Assembly (NCBI RefSeq): GCF_037042905.1
Contig: NC_087245.1
Location: 13,394,001 to 13,458,000, forward strand
Source: Lytechinus pictus
Lineage: Eukaryota
DNA: 64,000 bases
Direction of reading: 5' to 3'
The first letter of the stretch is position 1, and every line of letters starts with the position of its first letter. Positions 1-42,850 of the stretch are shown here, in pieces. Under the pieces are notes generated by a model that ran no database searches, was not told the origin of the DNA, and saw only the letters and a list, made by a program, of their open reading frames with translations. A program made the translations under genes and the position numbers.

Positions 1-974
1 CTCACCACAAACAAAGCCCTTAAATATTTTGTAAATTATGCATCATAATGCAGTCATGTGACATAAGCACATGATACTCAATTACCATGGTAACGCATCA
101 TCGTTGAATGTTGTCTGATCTTCATTTCAAACACGGATATGTGTACCCAGTGTTAAAACTCAAGAACAAATAGACATACACAAAGTGTGAAGAAATGAAT
201 GAAAAAATGTATTCAAAGTGCTGAAATTAAAAGTGTGTCTCATATGGCATACAATACATGATCCAACCAATCCAGTGCTAGCTAATCATATCATACATGG
301 CAGCTTACATTGGATTTGATAAGCACGAGATCCTATCCAAATGCATGATCATGCTTGTTTTTATAGAATGTCAGTATTGTCCACTTATTGTACTGGATGC
401 AAAATGTTTTTTTTTTCTTTTTCTATGTATTACTATTAAATATATTAAATGACAAAGATGCTAAGAGGTTAAAGATAAATAGAAAGAGAGAGGAAGAGCA
501 AGAGAAAGAGAGAGAGTGGTGGAGGGGGAGGAAGAATGATAGAGGGGTGGGTGTCAGAGAGATAAAAAGAAAATGATAAAGAAATCAAAGATGAGGAGAA
601 AGGGGAGGGTATTCCTAAGAAAGCAGCAATAGTATGTTCCAAGAAAATGAATGAGTCATATTCAAAGAATGTGGTCTCCAGAGGAAGAGAAAGGCTAAAA
701 CCCAAGAAACCACCTTTGTGAAGAGAGAATAAACAGAACACATTTCTTTGTAAACAGGAACAATGGTTTTTAGACTGTCTTTAAAGGATTAAAGAAGACA
801 AAGGTAATGCCAAAAGACTGTAGTGTACACTTTGAAAATTACCTTTTGAACATTTTGTGTAGGCTAAGCTTGTGTAAAATATGTTTGTATCAATTTCTGT
901 TTCAATGCTAAACATTACCAAGTTAAATTTTGCCATGCACAATACTTGCAAGGCAAAATCACAGGCAACATACT

Positions 975-1063
975 TTTCAATGTTGACCTCTTCTATTTTT
1001 AATGCTATTATTAAGAATGATTCTTAATAATAGCATTAAAAATAGAAGAGGTCAAAATTGAAA
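975..1063. repeat. Long near-perfect palindrome (hairpin)
   Basis: 983-1018 TTGACCTCTTCTATTTTTAATGCTATTATTAAGAAT is the exact reverse complement of 1020-1055, with a single G spacer at 1019; extends to 975-1063 with one mismatch. Confidence 0.95.
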
Positions 1064-1974
1064 TGTTTATGAAAAATACAAAATAAAACTCTCATTCAAA
1101 CACTTGCACTTGGAGAATTCATTTGTTTCCTAAGAATGATAATCACATTTCGCTAAACAGAGACTTTCATTTTTCTGCAATCTAATTTGCTAATAGTACT
1201 GAAAACTTTTTGATCCAGTGCTGGATAATTCCATTTGTGTTGTCGTGCACCAGTATGCTAAAAAGCACTCGCATACACATGGGTACAGAGATGCAAATAA
1301 GACAATATGCCTTATTCATACAATATGCCTTAATTTACATTGTATTTAAATATTTTTATATGGTTAATAAATGAATTGAATTGAATACAGAGCAAAGAAT
1401 ATGAAGTGGCAAGGTTGGCACTGAACCACAGACCTTCATGTCTTAAGTCAAGTATTTAAAAAAGAGAGCCACACAACCAGAAATGAAATAAAATGGTCCT
1501 AGTTTTCTTGTGTTACCACAGAAGGACAGGCATAAATCCCTGAAGGCTGAAAGTAGGCTAGCTTTAGTGTCATCATCAGCCATTCAGTGGTTGGCCACAT
1601 TATCGGAGATGGAAACTCATTTGAGAGACAATCTTTCCTCCAAGATACTAGATCAATCATGTCACAAAGTGTGGTTTTTCTACTTCCTACAGTGTTCAGG
1701 CAAGTAATGACATCATCGCATAAATAACCCAAGACAATGTAGGCTTAATGGCTTAGTTGTTTGGAGGAAAACGAGGGACACTGACACTTGCCTGAGAGGT
1801 AATGTAACGCATTGCTTGAATAATCCCTTGTTGCGGGTTGGATGTGACCAACATCGTATTAAACTTGATGAAAATATTGAGGTTCAACTTTGATATGAAG
1901 AAGTCTAAGAATTTCTCTTTTTCCAAGCTGAATACTGATGAAAATTACGATGAGGGTGAGGAAACTGAGGAAAG

Positions 1975-2335: not shown

Positions 2336-3318
2336 AAATACCGGTACTGATATTGAAAACTAGAACTGCAAGTTTCTTCAAATTGTCAATGAATGGAGCA
2401 TCATCAGGAGGCAACAAGGTCTCACTGAGTGGAGCAAGTTCGCGGGCCTGCACGAACCACCAGTTTGTTGAATCATACAAATATGATTTGTATTTTCAGA
2501 CTTAAAATGTGATTTGTGTGATACAGCTTTTTCAAACCTGAACAAAAAGTCAGAACCTTTGATAGACTTCTCTCAAGACCCACTTGTTGATCAAAATCAT
2601 AAAGTAAATATACATTAAAAAATCACTCACAACTTTTGACTCTATAAAACATGCAGATTCCTGCTTTTGAATCTAAATTGCTAAAAGGTCTAGCAATATT
2701 TGGCATCAATATCCACTCACTTGCTTTGTTTTAGCAGTTTTTCATCATAGTTTATATAAAATCTACTAAAGTCTAGTACATGTACGTCTTGTCTGTGATG
2801 GAAGACTATCTGCTTCAAAGCATTCCAGACATGCACAATACCTGTTTTTCTACTGGGCCAAGTCAAGTTCCATGGGAGAAATGAAGTAGTCTGGAAGTCT
2901 CTCTCCTTCCTCCCTCAATCAGGGTACTAATGGATAATTCGTTTTTCATTCCTGATTTTCGTAGAGCAAAAACGGAAGTCAACCTCATGGATTGGTCTTT
3001 GAAAACACAAAAACGAAATCACAACGAGAAAAACCCCGTTGTGATTTCATTTTTGGAGATCAAAAACAGAAGAATGAAATCAGAAATACTTTTGGTCCTC
3101 TCTGATACCTCATTCTATACCTGTGTTTGTTATATATTAAAAACAAAATCAGAACACGCTTTCTTCCCCCTGATTCTGTTTGGAAAAACGCAGACAGCGA
3201 AAACGAAATCGGGTAGTTCGCTTTCCACTTCCTGCTCTCTGATTTGGTCTTTCGCACAACCAACAGCCATATCGAAATACGTTATACACACGGGCACGCA
3301 GTGCATGCCTGATACGAC

Positions 3319-3346
3319 CATGAAGCTATTACGTAATAGCTTCATG
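3319..3346. mobile_element. Putative P-element-family excision footprint (28-bp palindrome with 7-bp TSD)
   Basis: CATGAAGCTATTACGTAATAGCTTCATG flanked by ATACGAC/TTACGAC; absent at the homologous position of the right arm (~8995-9008), which has a single ATACGAC. Confidence 0.65.
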
Positions 3347-3511
3347 TTACGACCACGTGCAACAAATGGCTTTTAATTTCCAGCGTTTTCGGACCTTCAC
3401 AGACAGTGGCGTAGCTAGGATTTTCCCCCCCGGGGGGGGGGGGGGGCAATGGGGGGTCCTAGCTTTTTCAGGGGGGGGGGGCACCGGCCATTTTTGGCGG
3501 TGTGTGTGTAA

Positions 3512-4012
3512 TAAAGTAATTTTTCAAGGGGCGCCCCAGGAATATCCCGACGGCCTAGCCAGGGTAACCACGTACCCTAACTTGTAGAGCTCGACAAGGG
3601 CAACCAGATAAACACTGACTTGACCCGGCGCATGCACATTAAGGGGGCTCAAATTAACAAAAATAAAGGGCTATTTATCGCATTTTTGAAATTAAAATAA
3701 AGTAAATTTTCAAGGGGCCCCAGGGATATCCCGACAGCCTAGCCAGGGTAACCACGTATCCTAACTTGGAGAACTCGACTCGGGCAACCAGATAAACACT
3801 GATTTGACCCGGCGCATGCACATTTAGGGGGCTCAAATTAACAAAATTAAAGGGAATAAAGGAATATTTATCGCATTTTTAGAATTAAAATAAAGTATTT
3901 TTTCAAGGGGCCCCCAGGGATATCCCGACGGCCTAGCCAGGGTAACCACGTACCCTAACTTGTAGAACTTGACTCGGGCGATCAGATACACATTAGCTTG
4001 ACCCGTTGCATG
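3512..4012 (-). repeat. ~193-bp tandem repeat array, left arm (about 2.6 units, resuming at 5963-6015)
   Basis: Repeated CCTAGCCAGGGTAACCACGTACCCTAACTTG units, reverse complement of the 7719-8825 array. Confidence 0.9.
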
Positions 4013-5962
4013 CAGTGGCGTAACAGGGTCGGTGGCTGGGGGGGGGGGGGGGGGGCAAGAACCAAGAATTTCCCGGTCACATCATAAAGCAGGCAATGGA
4101 GTCATAAGGCAAAAATTTTGAGGGGGCGATATTATGGAGTATCGGACAAAAATATATATATATGCGAGCGAGCGGAGCGTTCGAGCAAAAATTTTGACAT
4201 TTTAATGGCAAAAATGAGTGGGGTCCGGGGTAGAGCCCCGGAACCTCTTGATATTAAAGCCATTTTAAACCTTACAGATGGCCACTAATTTTAATCAAAT
4301 TGCGTGTATATTTATATAGCTTTCACACTACACATAAATTCAGTGCTGCAGTTGTGTACCGTAATCATCTAAATATTTTGAGGGGGTCTACCATAGCAAA
4401 TGTGGGAAAATTTGTAAAAAGTCGGCAGCGAGCGAAACGAGCCAGAAGAAAAATGGCCTTTTGAAATAAAATTGAATTGTGTGATAGACTTTTACATCAC
4501 AGCAAATATTATGTCTTATATTTTTTTTTATTTCATTCATCTCATTTCGCTGCCTCCTTCATATTCTTTTATTTCCCCTTGGCTGTGGAACCAATCCCCC
4601 CCCCCCGTACGCCAGTGCTTCAACGCAAAGGTTAATGCAGGAAGGGTCCATATAGGGGCCCGTTATAGAGCCCTTTAAAAGTTACAAGTTAAGAGCCTCC
4701 ACTGCACGGGGCCTTGACTCTTGGACAGAGCCCCCGGTAGCATTGGATATTTAGCAAGTTTATAATAGACTTTCATACGAAATTATGCTATATACCATCC
4801 ATCTTTTTTTCCCGCTCGTTATCTTCAATCCTCAGCAGCGCGGTAGTAATATCTTGTCCCTTTTTTTATTTTCCAATTTAGATTTTGCCTCATTCCATTC
4901 TACCTTCACTCGCTTTTGTTTGCCTTTTTGTCATCTTTAATTTATTTCCCTGTCTTTTAAAATGATTTTGAAAATAAATTTTAATTATGTGATAGTCGCT
5001 TTGGAAATTTAGTCGATCAATCAATCAATCAATGCAGTTGTGTACCGTAATCATCCAAATATTTTGAGGGGGCACGCCAGAGCAAATGTGGGAAAATTTG
5101 TTTTAAAAAAAAGTCGCCAGGAGCGAAGCGAGCCAGAAGAAAAATGGCATTTTGAAATAAAATTATAATTATGTGATGGATTTTTACATCATAGCAAATG
5201 TCATGTCTTATATATTTTTTAAAATATTTTATTCATTCATCTCATTACGCTGCCTCCTTCATTTTCTTTTATTTCCCCTTGGCTGTGGAACCCCCCCCCC
5301 CCGTACGCCAGTGCTTCAACGGAAGGATCCATATAGGGGGTCGTTATAGAGCCCTTTAAAGGTTACAGGTTAAGAGCCTCCACTGCACGGGGTCTTGACT
5401 CTTGGACAGAGCTCCCGGTAGCTTTGGAGATTTAGCAAGTTTATAATAGACTTTCATACGAAATTATGCTATATACCATCCATCTTTTTTCCCCTCTCGT
5501 TATCTTCAATCCTCAGCAGCCCATGTCCCTTTTTTTTATTTTCCAATTTAGATTTTGCCTCATTCCATTCTACCTTAATTTCCCGCTTTTGTTTGCCTTT
5601 TTGTCATCTTTAATTCATTTCCCTGTCTTACTAAGCCTAATGTATATCTGGGAAAATTGTTCTTCCTCACATGTTCTTCTTTCCTTCCTTTTTCCAAATT
5701 CTTTCCGTTTTCCCTTTTTTTCTTAGTTTTATTTTCCCTTACCCTTTTCTATTCCCCTCCCTTTCCCCCTTTCATCTTTTTTCCTTTCCTTTTCCTTTCC
5801 CTTTCTTTCTTTCTCCCCTTATTTTTTCCTTTCCTTTTCCTTTCCCTTTCTTTCTTTCTCCCCTTATTTTTTTCCTCTTCCCGTTTTTTTTCTTAACATT
5901 TTCACGGTGAACTCCGCCAGGGGGAAGGGGGGCAGCTTGCCCCCTCGCCTGTTACGCCACTG
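4013..5962. mobile_element. hAT-type non-autonomous element nested in a satellite unit
   Basis: 15-bp TIR CAGTGGCGTAACAGG / CCTGTTACGCCACTG; perfect 8-bp TSD GTTGCATG (4005-4012, 5963-5970); the interrupted 193-bp unit resumes after it. Confidence 0.9.
4347..5629. repeat. Internal ~600-bp direct duplication (period 686 bp)
   Basis: TGCAGTTGTGTACCGTAATCATC begins at 4347 and 5033; similarity runs to CCCTGTCTT at 4956 and 5629. Confidence 0.9.
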
Positions 5963-7718
5963 GTTGCATGCACATTTTGGGGGCTAAAATTAACAAAAGT
6001 AAAGGAATACGGGCTTTTTCAAGCATGGGGAACCATGGTCCTGACTTTTCCCCCCATCCCTTAGTGCTGCCGATGGGTAGAGTAAAAAACAACAAGGAAA
6101 GAGAGAAGACAAAATAGAAGAGAGAGAAGCGAAAGGGAGAGATAGGAAAGAAAAGGAGGGGGAAAGGGAGAGAAAGAGAAGGGAGAACGGAGGGGTCATA
6201 TCATTGTATGAACGGGATATTTTATGATTATGCCCCGAGCATTAGTGTGAAGCTCAATGCGAGATAAGAACAAAATAGAGGGGGCACACCATGGCGCACG
6301 CAGCAAAAATTTGCTTAATAATAAGTCTCCAGCGAGCGAAGCGAGCGAGAATAAAAATCACCTTCAATTTTGAGATTGATTTTGACATGGTATGCAGAAA
6401 ATGACATATCTTTCCTCTTCCTTTTCTTTCTTTCCTTTTATCATTTTTTTTTTCTCGGTTGTAGAACTTTTTTTTTTTTTTTTTTTTTTTTTTGGGGGGG
6501 GGGCAGTGCTATGCGGTTCGGGTCCGGGGCAATGACGGTACTAGGGTTTTTAACCTAGGAGGAGGCAAACAAACATTTTGGGGCCGAGGGGATGGCACAC
6601 ATTTTTTTAAAAATCGAGCGAGAAGCGCGAGCTAATTTTATTGCAAATGCAGTCCCTACTGATTTAAAAAGGGAACTGTTAAGAATCAGCTGTTTGCATT
6701 AATTGGGTCATGAAGATGATATCTCACCAAATGAATAATGCGAGCGCGAAGCGTGAGCTGAAAATTTTTGATATCCGGGATGATACCTGGCCGTTCTAAG
6801 CTTTTTTTAAATTATAAAATGAATGGCTATCTAATTCGCTGAAAATAAATCCTCTATGGAAATTATGAATACGCAGGATATGTATCTCGCTAAAACAAAT
6901 AATGAAAACTCTAATAACATTTGATTTTTAAGCCCCATGTGAACAGATAATCATTAATAACTGCGAGCGCGTATCGCGAGCTACATTTTGAATTTTATAT
7001 AATGGCCTGAAAGATTTATGTTAGTGACCAAAATTGTTGGGATCTAAATGCTAACGGTGAATGGATGAGAATATTTTTAAAATTTAAAGAACAAAAAACA
7101 TTTTTGGAGTATTATGACAACGTTTACTATACATTTTGTTTCTTCAAATTTCGGGGGGGGGGGGCAACTCACTGGGGCCTCCCCATTCGGTGGCGCCACT
7201 GGTCTGGGGCGGAGCCCCCAGAACCTCGTGATATTTTTAAACATTGCAGATGGCCATTTTTTTTTAAATCAAATCGCGGGTACATACATCACATATTATA
7301 TTAAGTTGCTAATTAATTGAATTGAAGGCTACACGTGCAAAAGAAAATGTCTCATGAGAATTATTCGAAGATTAGAGGAGCTTTATACTCATATTTTATA
7401 TTTTGACAATACGTTTTCTATCGATATACGCCCCCATCTTTTCTCCAAGAGATGACGATCTACAACAGAAGGCTGAAGATATTCATTCGACCCAACCCAT
7501 TCTCATTTTTTAATTTGTAAGTTGATTACAAAAAAGAATATGTATAATGATTAGACTGATTCTAGAAACAGAGAATGGGCAACCATTGAACATATTTTGT
7601 GCAAATAAAAGAAAAATACAGGTGTCACTCAGCTTTCGGAACTATTTTATTGGCGGAGGATTTAGGACTGAGTATAATATATGAATAAGATCTGCTCATG
7701 AGATGCTTTAACCAGTTG

Positions 7719-8825
7719 CCCCCTAAATGTGCATGCGCCGGGTCAAGCTAGTGTTTATCTGGTTGCCCGAGTCGAGTTCTCCAAGTTAGGGTACGTGGTT
7801 ACCCTGGCTAGGCCGTCGGGATATCCCTCGGGGCCCCTTGAAAAAATACTTTATTTTAATTTTAAAAATGCGATAAATATCCCTTTATTCCCTTTACTTT
7901 TGTTAATTTGAGCCCCCTAAATGTGCATGCGCCGGGTCAAGCTAGTGTTTACCTGGTTGCCCGAGTCGAGTTCTACAAGTTAGGATACGTGGTTACCCTG
8001 GCTAGGCCGTCGGGATATCCCTGGGGGCCCCTTGAAAAATTACTTTATTTTAATTTTAAAAATGCGATAAATAGCCCTTTATTCCCTTTACTTTTGTTAA
8101 TTTGAGCCCCCTAAATGTACATGCGCCGGGTCAAGTCAGTGTTTATCTGGTTGCCCGAGTCGAGTTCTACAAGTTAGGGTACGTGGTTACCCTGGCTAGG
8201 CCGTCGGGATATCCCTGGGGGCCCCTTGAAAAATACTTTATTTTAATTTTAAAAATGCGATAAATAGCCCTTTATTCCCTTTACTTTTGTTAATTTGAGC
8301 CCCCTAAATGTACATGCGCCGGGTCAAGTCAGTGTTTATCTGGTTGCCCGAGTCGAGTTCTACAAGTTAGGGTACGTGGTTACCCTGGCTAGGCCGTCGG
8401 GATATCCCTGGGGGCCCCTTGAAAAATACTTTATTTTAATTTTAAAAATGCGATAAATAGCCCTTTATTCCCTTTAATTTTGTTAATTTGAGCCCCCTAA
8501 ATGTGCATGCGCCGGGTCAAGTCAGTGTTTATCTGGTTGCCCGAGTCGAGTTCTACAAGTTAGGGTACGTGGTTACCCAGGCTAGGCCGTCGGGATATCT
8601 CTTGGGGCCCCTTGAAAAATAATTTATTTTAATTTTAAAAATGCGATAAATAGCCCTTTATTCCCTTTAATTTTGTTAATTTGAGCCCCCTAAATGTGCA
8701 TGCGCCGGGTCAAGTCAGTGTTTATCTGGTTGCCCGAGTCGAGTTCTACAAGTTAGGGTACGTGGTTACCCTGGCTAGGCCGTCGGGATATCCCTGGGGG
8801 CCCCTTGAAAAATTACTTTATTTTT
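7719..8825 (+). repeat. ~193-bp tandem repeat array, right arm (about 5.7 units)
   Basis: TAAATGT(G/A)CATGCGCC recurs at 7724, 7918, 8112, 8305, 8498, 8691 (periods 194,194,193,193,193); units nearly identical. Confidence 0.95.
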
Positions 8826-9977
8826 TGGCACACACACCGCAAAAAATGGCCGGTGCCCCCCCCCCTCCCCCTGAAAAAGCAAGGACCCCCCAGTCCCCCC
8901 CCCCCCCCCCCCGGGAAAAAAATCCTAGTTACGCCACTGTCTGCGAAGGTCCGAAAACGCTGGAAAAAGCCATGTTAAAGTGAATTTTTGTTGCACGTGG
9001 TCGTATCATGCATGCACTGCACTGCGTGCACGTGTGTTGGCTGTTGGCTGTGCGAAAGACGAAATCAGAGAGCAGGAAGTGGAAAGCGAACTACCCGATT
9101 TCGTTTTCGCTGTCTGCGTTTTTCCAAACAGGATCAGGGGGTAGAAAGCGTGTTCTGATTTTGTTTTTAATATATAACAAACACAGGTATAGAATGAGGT
9201 ATCAGAGAGGACCAAAAGTATTTCTGATTTCATTCTTCTGTTTTTGATCTCCAAAAATGAAATCACAACGGGGTTTTTCTCGTTGTGATTTCGTTTTTGT
9301 GTTTTCAAAGACCAATCCATGAGGTTGACTTCCGTTTTTGCTCTACGAAAATCAGGAATGAAAAACGAATTATCCATTAGTACCCTGATTTCCCTCTTTC
9401 CCCTTTCCCCCACTCTGAATATCCTCTTTCAAAATATGATACTACCCCCTATACATGCTATAATAAATATTGACCACACTTTGACATTAATCCTTGCATT
9501 AATGCTCACAGCTTGGTTCTATGGGAGTCATAAAAAATAATTTTATGCACAATATGTGTCATGTGCTACCGGATAGTGATATGTTTCGTTTCATGAATCA
9601 TGAAATGTCACTTTGGCACATGCAGGTACATAAAACAATTTATACTTGAACATTCATGAAAAGATTTGATAGAGAATCGAATTTCCAGGGTCAATGTAGT
9701 CAGAAGATGAAGCAGGGAATTCATCCCCAGGTTTTTGTATCTGGCAATTCATGGGGAATCCAACACAAATAAAGACTTTTTTTAGAGGAAAAAGAAATAA
9801 AAAACAGACTACATAATTTTTTTTTTCTGTCTAACCAAGGAGACTCCAGACAAGGTGACAAGCACTTTGCCGGATAGTCACAGGTATATACAGTGTATGT
9901 TGCTGCGAAGTTTCCAAGTAGCCCATGTCTCAGAGACTTCTTATACTTTCTGGTCTCCTGCAGGCTGCACGGGCCTA

Positions 9978-11608
9978 GGCTGCGTTTATGCGACCTCAAG
10001 TCAGAATCATGATTCGAATCATGATTTGAATCATGATTCAAAACACAAACATGAATCACAATACCACAGAATCAGCGTTCAGACGACCTTCATTTTAAAG
10101 CTGTTTTTCCTCGGATTCGGACCGATCCAGTGCGCATCACAGTGCGCAGTTTGACAGAGGAAGTTAGGTCAACTTTTTTCGCATGTGTTTTGGCTCCCGA
10201 AAAATCAATCCTGTACCTTCCGAATTCAGTCTATTATACCACAATTTGTTTACCTATTATTCTTCTTGTCGGTTTATCGAAAATTGTGTTCGGATGTAAA
10301 TTTTAGCGTAGATCCAATTTCATATTGACACTTGTTAACTCAACAACAATTGATATCATTGTCTGTTCAGTTAGTTCATTTACTAGTTCACTTGAAGTTG
10401 AAGACATGACAAAAAAAAAAGATGAAAAGAAGTGGACGATGCGATGCCCAACACTGAAAGCATGCATATCATATTATGTATAAATGCACTGAGCATATAG
10501 CGCGTCTTGAGCTTGGCAAGAGTCAAACCTAAAGTAGCCCGACACAATGACGTCATAGAATCATGATTGTAATCACGATATCGTTTATTCGAACATTTTC
10601 GTACGTGATTCTGCAGAAACGTCTTTCCAAACGCCCCTTTTTTCGTGTTTCATGTTTGTGATTCTAATCATGATTATATTCAATTTCGACTATGGCTGCG
10701 TTTATGCGACCTCAAGCCAGAATCATGATTTGAATCATGATTTGAATCATGATTCAAAACACAAACATGAATCACAATATCACAGAATCAGCGTTTAGAC
10801 GACCTTCATTCCAATGCTGTTTCTCCTCAGATTCGGGCCAATCCAGTGCGCATCACTAGTGCGCAGTTTGACAGAGGAAGTTTTTCGCACGTGTGTTTCG
10901 GCTCTCGAAAAATATTTTGCTTCCAGAATTCAGTCTATACCTCATTTTGTTTACTTCTATCATATAGGGTCCATATGCTTCTATTCATCTTGTTAGTTTA
11001 TCCAAAATGGTGTTCGGAAGTGAATTTCAGTGTAGATCCAATTTAATATTGATACTCTATATACTCAACAACAACTGAGATCATTGTCTGTCCAGTTAAT
11101 TCATTTACTAGAACTTGAAGTTGAAGACATGACCAAAAAATGAAAAGTAGTGGACGATGCGATGACCAAAACAGAACTTGAACATGACAAGAAATGCATG
11201 CGTAGTACATACTCATGTACATACAATGAGCATATAGAGCGCATTGAGCTTGGCAAGAGTCAAACCGAAAGTAGCCCGACACAACAGTGAGGTCATATAA
11301 TCATGATTGTAATCACGATATCGTTTATTCGAACATTTTCGTACGTGATTCTGCAGAAACGTCTTTCCAAACGCCCCTTTTTTCGTGTTTCATGTTTGTG
11401 ATTCTAATCATGATTATATTCAATTTCGACTAAACGCAATCGTGATTCTGCAGAATCATGATTTGAATCATGATTCAAATCATGATTCTAGGGTAAAAAA
11501 GTGGCGGATAAACGCACCCTAAACGCAATCGTGATTCTGCAGAATCATGATTTGAATCATGATTCAGATCATGATTCTAGGGTAAAAAAGTGGCGGATAA
11601 ACGCACCC
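9978..11608. mobile_element. PIF/Harbinger-type MITE (outer copy)
   Basis: TIR GGCTGCGTTTAT / ATAAACGCACCC; 3-bp TSD CTA (9975-9977, 11609-11611); the empty site GGGCCTAATCAC is visible in the second direct repeat at ~13054; subterminal GAATCATGATT repeats. Confidence 0.9.
10694..11519. mobile_element. PIF/Harbinger-type MITE, same family, nested in the outer copy
   Basis: Complete 826-bp copy with the same TIRs; flanks TAT (10691-10693) / TAA (11520-11522); the empty site TTCGAC-TAA-ACGCAATC is seen inside this copy at ~11425-11441. Confidence 0.85.
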
Positions 11609-25507: not shown

Positions 25508-26883
25508 GGTAATAATCAAACAAAACACAAGTTTTAATGAATTTACCCGAAATGTTCAGAACGGCTCTACATACATGTACATGCAATAAGACAATCAATT
25601 CACCTTGACATAGAAAGAGTTCATATCCACGAGTAATTTTGTATACATGTACCTCTCTCTATATTTCTTCTTCTCCTTCACCACTCCTTGCCTTTACAAT
25701 CACAAGCGCTTCCTTGCCCCTTCTCTCCCCATGTCTCCATGAGGAACCATATAAACAATGACTCAAACCTTGGAAAAGAAACACTTCCTTTTCACATGTT
25801 TTCACCAAACAAATGATCGCAAATGTCAAGTATCATGATTGGCCATCAAGTAAATGTGATATCGTTTAATAGTCAAGTTCCACATGCATGGCAGAACATT
25901 GAGGAAATGGAAGTTGACCAAAGAAAATCCGATAAATCAGAAAGATATATTTATTAGTACTTCTTGTTTGATGCTTACTGGCATGACTTGAATGAGTCTT
26001 CAGGGAGAACAGGATAAAAATTGACAGGAAACACAAATAAAAGTGTTTTATTCCAAATAATTTGCAAGTCATGGATTATATATACTTTGACAAAGTGACA
26101 AAGTGGGGGGGGGGGGGGTTCTGAAAAGTGAGAAAAGGATTTTTATCTGCAGGTAATAGCCAACATCACCCCCCCCCCCCAAAAAAAAAAAAAAGATAAA
26201 GAATAGATAAAAACTATTAAAAAAAGATAAATGAATAAATAAAAGTTCTATAAATGAATGAATAAAAGAATTAACAAAATAAATAAATTGTATATGAATG
26301 AATGAACGAATTTATAAACAAACAAATAAATTATGTTTGCATCGAATCACAATATCCCCCAGAGGACCCCCCCCCCCCACCACCATCTCTGGGTCTCCCG
26401 TGTCTGTCTCTCTCTCTCTTTCTATCTCCTCTTTTTTCTCTCTCTCACACAATAATCTTCATGAACATACAGTTCTCTGTCCCTCTCAACCAAATCTCTT
26501 GACACAGGAACCATGGTCTGGCTCTCAGCTACAGATATTACTGACGACTTGTCGCTCCATTCACAAGTGTACTACAGCACACCTACCTCCTCAGGACTGC
26601 TAACGATACGGTAGTAGCTCCATGGTATAATACTGTCCATTATCCAACTACATTTGGTGATAAATGTACATACAGGCCTAATGTAATAACTAGCAAAACA
26701 AATTTAACTGACTTAAAGAACAAATCAGGGATCTGTCCACAGTTGTGGCACAATGTTTGTGACTAAACAAGGAACAAAATGGAGCCTAATTGCCTGCATG
26801 TATCTGAAATTGAAAACGCCTGAATCCCCAAGATACATGTAGTTATAAAGTTAAATTGTCACAATAACCACGGAGGAGGACGA

Positions 26884-40153: not shown

Positions 40154-40293
40154 TCTTACACTTTATAAAGTATAAAAATCAAAGGCCGGAAATTTGCTGC
40201 AGCAAAAACAGTGTGAAATTTGAGCACTCTAGACTAATGTAAAAAAAAACTAGATTTTAATTCGTCATGCGGACGAATTAGGTGGTCTGTCGT

Positions 40294-41270
40294 ATAGATA
40301 GATAAACAGGAAAAAAATATTTAAACAGATATTAGATTGAAAAATAGATAGACAAACAGATTTACATAATCAAACAGATACATACAAGAAAGATATATAA
40401 TTATAGTAGATGGATGGACTGATGGATGGAGAGATCAATTATAGGTGGTTATATTAATAAAACATAGACATATAGATAGATAGAGACACAGACATATAGA
40501 TAGATAGAGAGACAGACTTATAGATCGATAGATTGATTGATAGATATATAGATAGATAGAGAGAGAGAGAGATGATTGGTGGTTATATTAATAAAACATA
40601 GATAAACATATAGATAGAAAGAGAGACAGACAGATAGATAGATAGACAGATAGATCTAGACAGACATATAGATAGAGAGACAGACATATCATGAAGCTAT
40701 TACGAGCTATCTCGTAAGAGACAGACATATAGATTGATAGAGAGACAGAGATAGATAGAGAGACAGACATATAGATGAATAGATAGATAGCTAGATAGAG
40801 AGACAGACAGACAGATATATAGATAGATAGATAGATAGATAGAGACAGGCAGATATATAGATGGCTAGATAGATAGACATATCTAAACAGATAGATACAT
40901 ATATATAATAATTAAATATAATTATATATCATAATGTATGTACATTTTCTCATGTTAATTTTATGTTTATAACAAGATATATTGTGATTGTTTTTTTAAT
41001 ATGCAGGACCCCAAGGGAGAGCAATTTTTTGTTGATTGGGTATCCTGTTGAAATATTGTTAATAAATAAATAAATAAATAATAAATATAGCGTATTAGAC
41101 ACACAGAGAGAGAGATAGATAGATAAACAGACAGAATAGATATACAATGTAGGTAGATAGACAGACAGACATATGGATAGATAGAGAGAGAGGGACGTAT
41201 TCAAACAGAAAAATATATATTAGACAGAGAGATGTGATGTAGGTAGATAGACAGACAGATAAATAGATAT
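40294..41270. repeat. GATA/GACA-type compound microsatellite inside the Helentron-like element
   Basis: Long TAGA/CAGA/GAGA runs, interrupted by an AT-rich block at ~40900-41095. Confidence 0.9.
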
Positions 41271-41379
41271 GATATAAAAAGTAATTATAATCTGTTTTAT
41301 TTTGCAATATTTTAGCTATTATTTGTTAGAATTCTTATAATTGATCGGGGGCAAGATAGCTTAAAAAAAAAAAAATCAT

Positions 41380-41453
41380 GTTCACCCGCGGACTCGAACC
41401 CCTGCCTGCATGATGGAATGAGAAGTAAGTCTGACGCCTAACCGATTGAGCTA
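41380..41453 (-). ncRNA. tRNA-derived Pol III-promoter-like sequence (pseudo-tRNA)
   Basis: Minus strand TAGCTCAATCGG (A box, 41453-41442) and GGTTCGAGTCC (B box, 41400-41390), followed by a 13-T run (41375-41363); no convincing cloverleaf. Confidence 0.55.
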
Positions 41454-42850
41454 GAATATTTCCCATAGACTTAACACTTAAGCAAAACACCAGAATCTCA
41501 AATCCAATCTTGCAAGTGAATTACGGGCATGATCCCGACATCTGATCGGAAAATGAAGGAAACGCAACCGAAAGCTTAGAATCTCAGCTACAACATACTA
41601 AAAGCTCAGGGATAACTAGCAACAAAAATTGGAGATATGGCTTACGAAATAGAAGAATGTAGAATCTAGTTTTGAGAAAAAGTCATGTCCCATAGAGATT
41701 ACCCGCAAAATGAGTAAAAATGACATGCCATTATTATTTGCAATTTTTGAGGATGATTTGTCTATCAAAATGAAAAATAAAGGCAATAACTTAGAAAGAG
41801 TAAGAACTAAGCTACAACATATCAAAAATTGGGTGAAAATTGACCAATATTCACGGAGTTAGAGCAAGATTTGCATAATTATAATGACGTCATAATAGGC
41901 AAAATGGATTTTTTGAATTCCGACGCCATTTTGATGACGTCATAATATAATTGAGGGTCAAATGAGACATGAAATTATATCTCTAGTTCATACTCTATCA
42001 AAATATGAAAAAAAAATTGGGGGTCCCCATGCGTTCTGAAGAGCTACAGCGGATTTTCTATAGGCATGTTTTTGCCCATATATGGCCTATAGTGAGAGCT
42101 CGCGCGCACACGTGCTGCAAACTTTAACGGGTGTTAATTTCCTTATTAATGGTCGTAGAAGGTTGATCAAGGTATCAAATTGCTCAAAATTATATGATCA
42201 ATGCAATGAAATAAAAAAAAACGGTGTTTCTGAGTTGCATTGAGGCGTTACGCGCGGAAACGCGCGCGCATACGTTTGCGCGCGCAATTTTTTGAAATGC
42301 TTAAAATGACCTAAAACGTACTCTGTTTTGGTCAAAAAGTGATTTTTAGCATTTTAAAATTTTGACGCGCGCGTCGTGACCTTCAGGTGACCTTTGATGA
42401 CATGACCTGATGACCCTTGATCTGAAGTTTATGTCATGTGAATTTGATTTATTTTTGATAATTGATAATGGAGATATGATTGATAATGTGATTTTACAAA
42501 ATGGCGTCTAGATGACGTCATGATGACGTCATGACATTAAGATTCTTGCAGAATTGAGGTCTTATTGATGTTGATATGTGGTGATATTTTGATGATTATT
42601 GAATATGAACTTTCTGAGATTTGCTGTCCACAAGAAATGGAGGAAATAAAAATAAGAAATAAAAATAAATAAATAATAAAAAGAAAATTCGGACAAACAT
42701 AAAAGGTGATCTGTCAATTTTTGACAGACCACCTAAAAACGGGCCTCATAGAAGAGAACAAGGGCATCAAAAGTTAATAGAACAGGGTCTAACACAAAGT
42801 TTAATGATTGTAGCTCACAATTTTTGAGGGATTTTGATCACTACAACTAA

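What the first reader, a model, noticed from the sequence alone, without database searches (positions are those of the whole stretch)
3312..3353. P-element-style excision scar: two 15-nt TIR stubs joined through CG microhomology inside a 7-bp TSD
Seen: CATGAAGCTATTA-CG-TAATAGCTTCATG between ATACGAC and TTACGAC; the opposite arm of the foldback provides the empty site. The same 15-mer recurs at 40690, extended to 17 nt. Known: Drosophila P transposase cuts leaving 17-nt 3' overhangs of the CATGA-starting TIRs on the donor DNA, and repair leaves footprints of about 15-17 bp per end inside the TSD. Inference: a P-superfamily (THAP9-like) element with TIR CATGAAGCTATTACGAG excised here recently, using the same 17-nt stagger in a non-insect genome.
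Basis: partly seen in the sequence, partly recalled or inferred. Interest (0 to 1): 0.8.

Follow-up and report, generated by a model that had tools for sequence, protein, structure and literature searches.

The report
P-like transposon scars, motif-set cut depth
The 42-letter palindrome is a real scar left when a cut-and-paste jumping gene related to the fruit-fly P element left its site, and hundreds of such scars in this genome suggest that the enzyme cuts just outside a short internal motif, 17 to 21 letters from the tip, not at a fixed distance.

Summary
In detail: two 15-nt stubs joined through CG inside a 7-bp duplication (one mismatch), with the empty site in the opposite arm. It is an excision footprint. 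Long non-coding elements carry this TIR (23-24 bp). 31 of 35 independent scars checked have a 7- or 8-bp TSD, mostly 7, consensus GTnnnAC (Galileo-like). No scar of 39-69 bp exists. Three claims fail. The scar is not a recent local event: it was copied with its host foldback (12 host copies pair a scar arm with an empty arm). The 40690 copy is a truncated scar carried in a tandem repeat. The stagger is probably 18 nt, not 17. Sister ends place an AGG motif at 18, 19, 21 or 22, and their stubs stop just before it (17, 18, 20, 21 nt); one element has a 21-type and a 17-type end. One end reads AGGTGG there, as the fly P TIR does. So the inner cut looks motif-anchored. No transposase-coding copy was found, so P membership rests on DNA features. 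The scan earlier reported P-like scars with family-specific depth on other DNA of this genome (e1-7810740).

The parts
3312..3318 (+). Left copy of the 7-bp target-site duplication
   Evidence: equals the single copy at the empty site
3319..3333 (+). Left TIR stub, 15 nt of a 23-24 bp TIR
   Evidence: TIR read on long copies
3332..3346 (-). Right TIR stub, 15 nt; shares the CG at 3332-3333 with the left stub (2-nt microhomology)
3347..3353 (+). Right copy of the TSD, first base changed; the change is shared by the other host copies read
2917..9390 (.). Host foldback element that carried and copied the scar; long inverted arms, flanked by a 6-bp duplication
   Evidence: scar arm paired with empty arm in 12 copies
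9000..9006 (-). Empty target site in the opposite arm
40690..40717 (+). Truncated copy of a second, 38-bp scar (17 + 4 filler + 17, or 18 + 3 + 17); only 7 nt of the second stub are left
   Evidence: table 5c sets the joint at TIR base 18
40240..42740 (.). Part of a ~2.6-kb tandemly repeated unit that carries the 38-bp scar and supplies most listed genome matches (limits approximate)

Best explanation
A non-autonomous P-superfamily DNA transposon once sat in one arm of an ancestral copy of the host foldback. The transposase cut one strand at each tip and the other strand inside the TIR, leaving long 3' single-stranded TIR tails on the donor DNA. End joining annealed the tails at CG, trimmed them to 15 + 15 and left the 28-bp scar between the TSD copies. 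The host then copied the scar around the genome. Shown: the scar, the TSD, the parent elements, the size wall and the host copying. Inferred: the inner cut falls directly 5' of a conserved AGG(A/T)G motif, which is after base 18 in this family and after base 17, 18, 20 or 21 in sister ends. The likely reason is that the transposase grips the tip (CATG) and the inner motif separately while the strand between them loops out, so the loop length is free. My odds by step: footprint 0.95, P superfamily 0.85, depth specific to each end and stopping at AGG 0.85, last kept base is the A before AGG (18 here) 0.7.
For: Parent elements with 23-24 bp TIRs and TSDs of 7, 8, 7 (one mismatch) and 7 bp. 87 stub-stub joins of 20-37 bp and 0 of 39-69 bp. 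Of 35 independent events among 40 fetched sites, 26 have an exact 7-bp TSD, 2 a 7-bp TSD with one mismatch, 3 an exact 8-bp TSD and 4 none. Junction types (1-4 nt microhomology, blunt, short filler) match those of fly P (PMC2895639 Tables 1-3). Base 18 kept in 20 of 21 events, base 19 in 7 of 20, base 20 in 0 of 7 (hand count). In the fly tables the base after the true end is A in 14 of 60 ends (hand count; Fisher p 5e-9). Intact sister ends have AGG starting at 18, 19, 21 or 22. The A before AGG is kept in 34 of 54, 29 of 47, 23 of 34 and 63 of 75 scar sites of these types. Only 2 sites in the genome run into AGG and then meet a partner stub. One 1,047-bp element with an exact 7-bp TSD has a 21-type and a 17-type end, and one scar joins 19 nt of a 21-type end to 16 nt of a 17-type end. 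That 17-type end reads AGGTGG after base 17, as the fly TIR does. In the fly structure the transferred strand loops out and is disordered at -14 to -18, and the HTH domain holds the inner half of the TIR (PMC7776569 section 8).
Against: No transposase-coding copy was found, so the enzyme is unnamed. In the sister types the last A is kept in only 62-84% of sites, and joins that stop one base earlier are common, so the exact cut could be one base nearer the tip. Flanks were read for only 3 sister-type scars; the other sister tallies are hand counts of sites, not de-duplicated. The tallies are anchored on stubs that already reach the base before that A. 4 of 35 events lack a TSD, and so does the 38-bp scar. 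One 46-bp scar keeps 22 nt of a 17-type end. The fly control comes from spn-A mutant flies and may not match repair in this animal. My strand-refolding register did not single out the inferred cut. One mixed-end element and one hybrid scar were read in full.
Confidence: 0.75

Rival explanations
1. Footprint of a P-like element, but the cut lies one base nearer the tip (17 nt in this family; 16, 17, 19 and 20 in the sisters). The extra A comes from the partner stub or from untemplated addition.
For: Joins that stop at the G make up 18 of 47, 20 of 54, 11 of 34 and 12 of 75 sister sites. Two scars of this family read as direct 17 + 15 joins. The A can often be assigned to either stub.
Against: A follows in 20 of 21 events of this family against 14 of 60 in the fly control. 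The commonest products are those expected from a terminal A pairing with each A of the partner. The fly AGG register gives 18. Even on this reading a fixed 17 fails for the clan.
Confidence: 0.15
2. Several related transposases, each with its own fixed stagger, whose TIRs co-evolved; the depth is a property of the enzyme and is not set by the motif.
For: The genome has many P-type transposase loci (41 PF21787 matches). End types differ in sequence as well as in length.
Against: Ends of different type sit on one element with an exact TSD, and one scar joins two types. 17-type ends run into AGG in 1 of 54 scar sites, which would be common if a 21-nt cutter acted on them.
Confidence: 0.15
3. The short units are internal deletions from aborted gap repair, or tiny mobile units of their own, and do not record the cleavage site.
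For: In flies most repair products come from incomplete synthesis plus end joining (PMC2895639 passage). A 155-bp left-end stub and a 46-bp unit exist.
Against: There is a hard wall: 0 sites at 39-69 bp and 2 sites reaching into AGG. Junctions vary from site to site, and repeated units share their flanks, so they were copied with a host.
Confidence: 0.04
4. The palindrome is a tyrosine-recombinase site or the head-to-tail junction of tandem Crypton-like elements.
For: The 38-bp form has two 17-bp arms around 4 bp and recurs every ~2.6 kb.
Against: The 2.6-kb unit merely carries one scar with identical flanks. The arms point into long elements with a different TSD at each site, and the spacer is not conserved.
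Confidence: 0.01

Closest known systems
Drosophila melanogaster P element and its donor-site repair junctions (PMC7776569: passages and section 8 read; PMC2895639: passages with Tables 1-3 read; PMC11368186: one passage read)
   Same: CATG tips; long TIR stubs left between the TSD copies; microhomology, blunt and filler joins; AGG directly after the cut, AGGTGG in one end read here.
   Different: TIR 23-24 bp against 31; TSD mostly 7 bp against 8; stub limit 17, 18, 20 or 21 nt by end type against a single 17; natural fixed scars against laboratory events; no transposase in hand.
Galileo (P superfamily; PMC4168063, passages read) and 1360/Hoppel (PMC3698922, passages read)
   Same: 7-bp TSD with occasional 8; palindromic target GTnnnAC here against GTATTAC or GTANTAC for Galileo; 1360 also makes 7-bp TSDs.
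   Different: Short TIRs, no long foldback arms; middle target bases are not constrained; those passages give no excision stagger or footprint.
Zebrafish Pdre2 / zfTHAP9 (PMC10983969, passages read)
   Same: P-like element outside insects, CAT tips.
   Different: 13-bp TIR and 8-bp TSD; the passages describe larger flanking deletions after excision and map no stagger.
Earlier scan finding e1-7810740 (same genome, other DNA; a few lines seen)
   Same: P/Galileo-like scars with 7/8-bp TSD whose lengths show a family-specific cut depth.
   Different: The lines I saw do not mention a motif anchor, mixed ends on one element or the AGG match to the fly TIR; I could not see the full report.

Membership tests
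P superfamily of DNA transposons | Terminal inverted repeats with CA...TG tips | tested here: met
   23-24 bp TIRs on 4 of 4 paired long copies read. The CA...TG rule for the superfamily is recalled; fly and zebrafish tips were seen.
P superfamily of DNA transposons | 7- or 8-bp target-site duplication | tested here: met
   4 of 4 long copies; 31 of 35 scar events; 4 of 4 sister-type sites. Sizes for P, 1360 and Galileo from PMC3698922.
P superfamily of DNA transposons | Long staggered cut that leaves TIR tails on the donor DNA | tested here: met
   Stub-stub scars with a hard size wall. Inferred from scars, not from cleavage.
P superfamily of DNA transposons | Autonomous copy encoding a THAP + RNase H + GTP-binding transposase | tested here: inconclusive
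   Two long copies read are non-coding. None of 41 PF21787 or 13 PF21789 matches lies near a listed TIR end (compared by eye). The ends of the transposase loci themselves were not read.
P superfamily of DNA transposons | Subterminal THAP-binding sites and internal inverted repeats | not tested
   No binding motif is known for this family.
P superfamily of DNA transposons | GTP cofactor | not testable with these tools
   Needs biochemistry.
P element proper (D. melanogaster type) | 31-bp TIR and 8-bp TSD | tested here: not met
   23-24 bp TIR; 28 of 35 events have 7 bp and 3 of 35 have 8 bp.
P element proper (D. melanogaster type) | Fixed 17-nt stagger | tested here: not met
   75 and 34 scar sites keep at least 20 and 19 nt. 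In the family of this scar base 18 is kept in 20 of 21 events.
Galileo | 7-bp TSD with GTANTAC-like consensus | tested here: met
   GTnnnAC; 11 of 28 seven-base TSDs match both halves and 21 of 28 at least one.
Galileo | Long, internally repetitive foldback TIRs | tested here: not met
   TIRs are 23-24 bp.
Galileo | Galileo-clade transposase | not tested
   No coding copy in hand.
Crypton / tyrosine-recombinase elements | No TIRs or variable TSD; conserved crossover spacer | tested here: not met
   TIRs and site-specific TSDs are present and the spacer varies. The family description is recalled.

The most novel reading that the evidence does not exclude
The hallmark 17-nt stagger of P transposase is not a ruler. 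P-superfamily enzymes cut directly outside an inner AGG(A/T)G motif that is conserved from fly to this animal, and one enzyme accepts 17 to 21 nt between tip and motif, even unequal lengths at the two ends of one element. Natural scars are then a genome-wide record of cleavage sites.
Probability: 0.6. Interest if true: 0.75.

Novelty: new variant of a known kind. Interest (0 to 1): 0.6.

Why it matters
[quoted passage not shown] If the inner cut is set by a motif with a free-length loop, this gives a simple test on the fly enzyme: add or remove bases between tip and AGG and map the cut. It would also let cleavage sites of unstudied P-like families be read from genome sequence alone. The single scar is of modest interest; the series of end types carries the value.

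Tried and rejected
Crypton or recombinase-site reading of the 38-bp palindrome: rejected. Search for an autonomous copy: ORFs of two long copies gave no Pfam family over cut-off (11 ORFs of one copy scanned; the other listed); the 3.8-kb copy owes its size to a 1.5-kb nested insertion; no listed TIR end lies near a P-type transposase match ([40 of 96 candidates scored], 75, 80, 90, 91). Metagenome scan with a degenerate TIR: 12 of 12 hits had no partner TIR and no likeness to the element. Sequencing runs: no RNA holder listed; laying 4 runs on one element showed no joint across it at that locus and no route to a transposase. Strand-refolding idea (tip pairing with the bases after the cut, with a compensatory change): the register gave 4 of 5 pairs at base 18 but also at 15, and 3 of 5 for the 17- and 21-type ends, and duplex energies did not peak at the inferred cut; dropped as evidence. 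The 3-mismatch match at 26610-26624 shows no motif or partner and is treated as chance. A scan of 395 kb of held DNA for other micro-elements with exact TSDs found none. The primary fly papers PMC6948148 and PMC316450 are not held, so the base-pair register of the fly structure and the original footprint data were not seen. Ten literature searches listed no paper on natural P-type scars outside Drosophila or on a variable stagger; the library lacks most subscription journals and Repbase Reports, so this is weak evidence of absence.

Full report
Observation. The finding is in the sequence as described: a 7-bp word at 3312-3318, a 28-bp palindrome at 3319-3346 made of two 15-nt arms that share CG, and the same word with its first base changed at 3347-3353. 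The opposite arm of the host foldback has the word once, at 9000-9006. The 15-mer has 734 exact matches in the 812-Mb genome and the reversed control has none. Earlier scan notes call this genome a sea urchin; I did not test that.

Parent elements. Exact and one-mismatch 23-mers pair up 2.3 to 3.8 kb apart. The 4 pairs read have TIRs of 23-24 bp and TSDs of 7, 8, 7 (one mismatch) and 7 bp. The two copies read in full are non-coding, and the longer one holds a 1.5-kb nested insertion. Three held copies are 94-96% identical, gaps included. The genome has 41 matches to PF21787 and 13 to PF21789, some in open frames of 817 and 959 aa. By eye none lies near a listed TIR end. I could not read the ends of those loci, so the enzyme is unnamed.

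The scar population. With 10-nt arms, 87 sites are 20-37 bp long (34 of them 25-37 bp) and none is 39-69 bp. I fetched 40 sites, picked for long stubs and for the commonest short classes, not at random. They merge to 35 events: 26 with an exact 7-bp TSD, 2 with one mismatch, 3 with an exact 8-bp TSD and 4 with none. The symmetrised 7-bp consensus is GTnnnAC, close to Galileo's GTATTAC or GTANTAC with its rare 8-bp cases (PMC4168063, passages). Junctions show 1-4 nt microhomology, blunt joins and short fillers, as in the fly P tables (PMC2895639).

This scar is old and copied. The same scar, flanks and TSD mismatch stand in 4 of the 4 copies read. The three others are about 95% identical to the window's arm over 500 bp, gaps included. 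There are 28 empty sites, and 12 host copies, the window included, pair a scar-type match with an empty site in inverted order 4-22 kb apart (matched by coordinates). The event happened once in an ancestral host copy. The host spans 2917-9390 with a 6-bp duplication. The 40690 match belongs to a second scar of 38 bp that rides in a ~2.6-kb tandem unit and is cut short in this copy. That unit supplies most of the 100 matches listed.

Depth of the cut in this family. The window's scar shows only that the tails were at least 15 nt. A tally that ignores the partner stub found 33 sites of the 17-mer variant with A at base 14: 8 intact ends and 25 scars, 21 events after merging 5 copies of one. Base 18 is kept in 20 of 21, base 19 in 7 of 20 and base 20 in 0 of 7 (hand count). 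As a control I counted the fly tables, where the cut is known: the base after the true end is A in 14 of 60 ends (hand count, spn-A mutant flies). Base 18 differs from that control (p 5e-9) and base 19 does not (p 0.38). The best estimate is 18 nt; 17 with a borrowed A, or 19, remain possible.

Sister ends. A clan with G at base 5 has 225 scars of 25-50 bp (50 listed). Its intact ends place AGG at base 18, 19, 21 or 22. For each type I counted how often scars keep the A just before AGG, then the next A, then G. 17-type: 34 of 54, 7 of 34, 1 of 7 (first 100 of 121 rows, 9 clustered sites merged, 15 intact ends left out, one site moved from intact to scar). 18-type: 29 of 47, 3 of 29, 0 of 3 (17 intact left out). 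20-type: 23 of 34, 6 of 23, 1 of 6 (5 left out). 21-type: 63 of 75, 10 of 63, 1 of 10 (5 left out). These are sites, not de-duplicated events; flanks were read for 3 of them and each had an exact 7-bp TSD. Genome-wide only 2 sites run into AGG and then meet a partner stub. So the wall moves with the motif. One 1,047-bp element with an exact 7-bp TSD has a 21-type left end and a 17-type right end, and one scar joins 19 nt of a 21-type end to 16 nt of a 17-type end. The 17-type end of that element reads AGGTGG after base 17, the same six letters that follow base 17 in the fly TIR (PMC11368186, one passage); most other ends read AGGAG.

Mechanism. Known for the fly enzyme: cuts at the 3' tip and 17 bp inside on the other strand; the HTH domain contacts the inner half of the TIR; the transferred strand loops out and is disordered at -14 to -18; the order and mechanism of cleavage are not known (PMC7776569, passages and section 8). 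Inferred here: the enzyme holds the tip and the inner motif separately and cuts at the motif's outer edge, so the loop may be 17 to 21 nt. The tails left on the donor are joined by end joining, which gives the scars. My attempt to support this with a strand-refolding register failed and is not used.

Against. No coding copy was found. The last A is kept in only 62-84% of sister sites, so the exact base is uncertain by one. The tallies are by hand and anchored on long stubs. Four events and the 38-bp scar lack a TSD, and one scar keeps 22 nt of a 17-type end. Several enzymes with fixed staggers are not excluded, because only one mixed element and one hybrid scar were read in full.

Comparison and novelty. 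It works like a P element. It fails the tests for the fly P element proper (TIR length, TSD, fixed 17) and for Galileo proper (long arms); superfamily membership is met on three DNA features and open on the transposase. Footprints of this kind are known from fly experiments. The scan already reported P-like scars with family-specific depth on other DNA of this genome (e1-7810740) and an ends-only relic in a fungus (e1-7826970); I saw only a few lines of each. Ten literature searches listed nothing on a variable or motif-anchored stagger, but two primary fly papers were not held and no supplements were read. Verdict: real, a new variant of a known kind, interest 0.6, carried by the series of end types and not by this one scar.

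Noticed in passing
window 2917-9390: Host foldback with long inverted arms, ~193-bp tandem units in both arms (3521-4014, 7718-8824) and a 6-bp duplication; superfamily not worked out.
   Followed up: partly
window ~40240-42740; L011, L031-L050: A ~2.6-kb tandemly repeated unit with a GATA-rich tract holds a 155-bp left-end stub plus a 38-bp scar without TSD. The same junction flanks appear in runs with two different organism labels.
   Followed up: partly
G000:C2 and C3: 26 of 45 listed clan ends lie on two contigs that hold 19% of the genome, 20 of them on C3, while scars are spread over all large contigs. May reflect local hopping or recent activity.
   Followed up: no
L097 (G000:C3:23664997-23665045): Looks like two scars stacked at one site: a long stub joined to three bases, a TSD copy, a four-base scar and another TSD copy.
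   Followed up: no
L007 and L026, about 1500-1580: A ~76-bp scar with filler that resembles inverted copies of both flanks, carried in another multi-copy host; no TSD.
   Followed up: no
L064, element positions 155-1643: A 1.5-kb nested insertion belongs to a young family; about 30 near-full-length copies are 95-98% identical.
   Followed up: no
G000:C12:261850, C4:26170661, C21:9248440: P-type transposase matches in open frames of 817, 959 and 959 aa; the last two score identically and may be recent copies.
   Followed up: partly
right ends listed: Most right ends of the commoner sister subfamily lack a CATG tip within 20 bases of the inner motif (2 matches against about 20 candidates); unexplained.
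   Followed up: no
window 10005-10042, 10741-10758, 11452-11489: Short palindromic arrays built on one repeated word.
   Followed up: no
window 972-1066: Near-perfect inverted repeat with 47-nt arms and 1 base between them.
   Followed up: no
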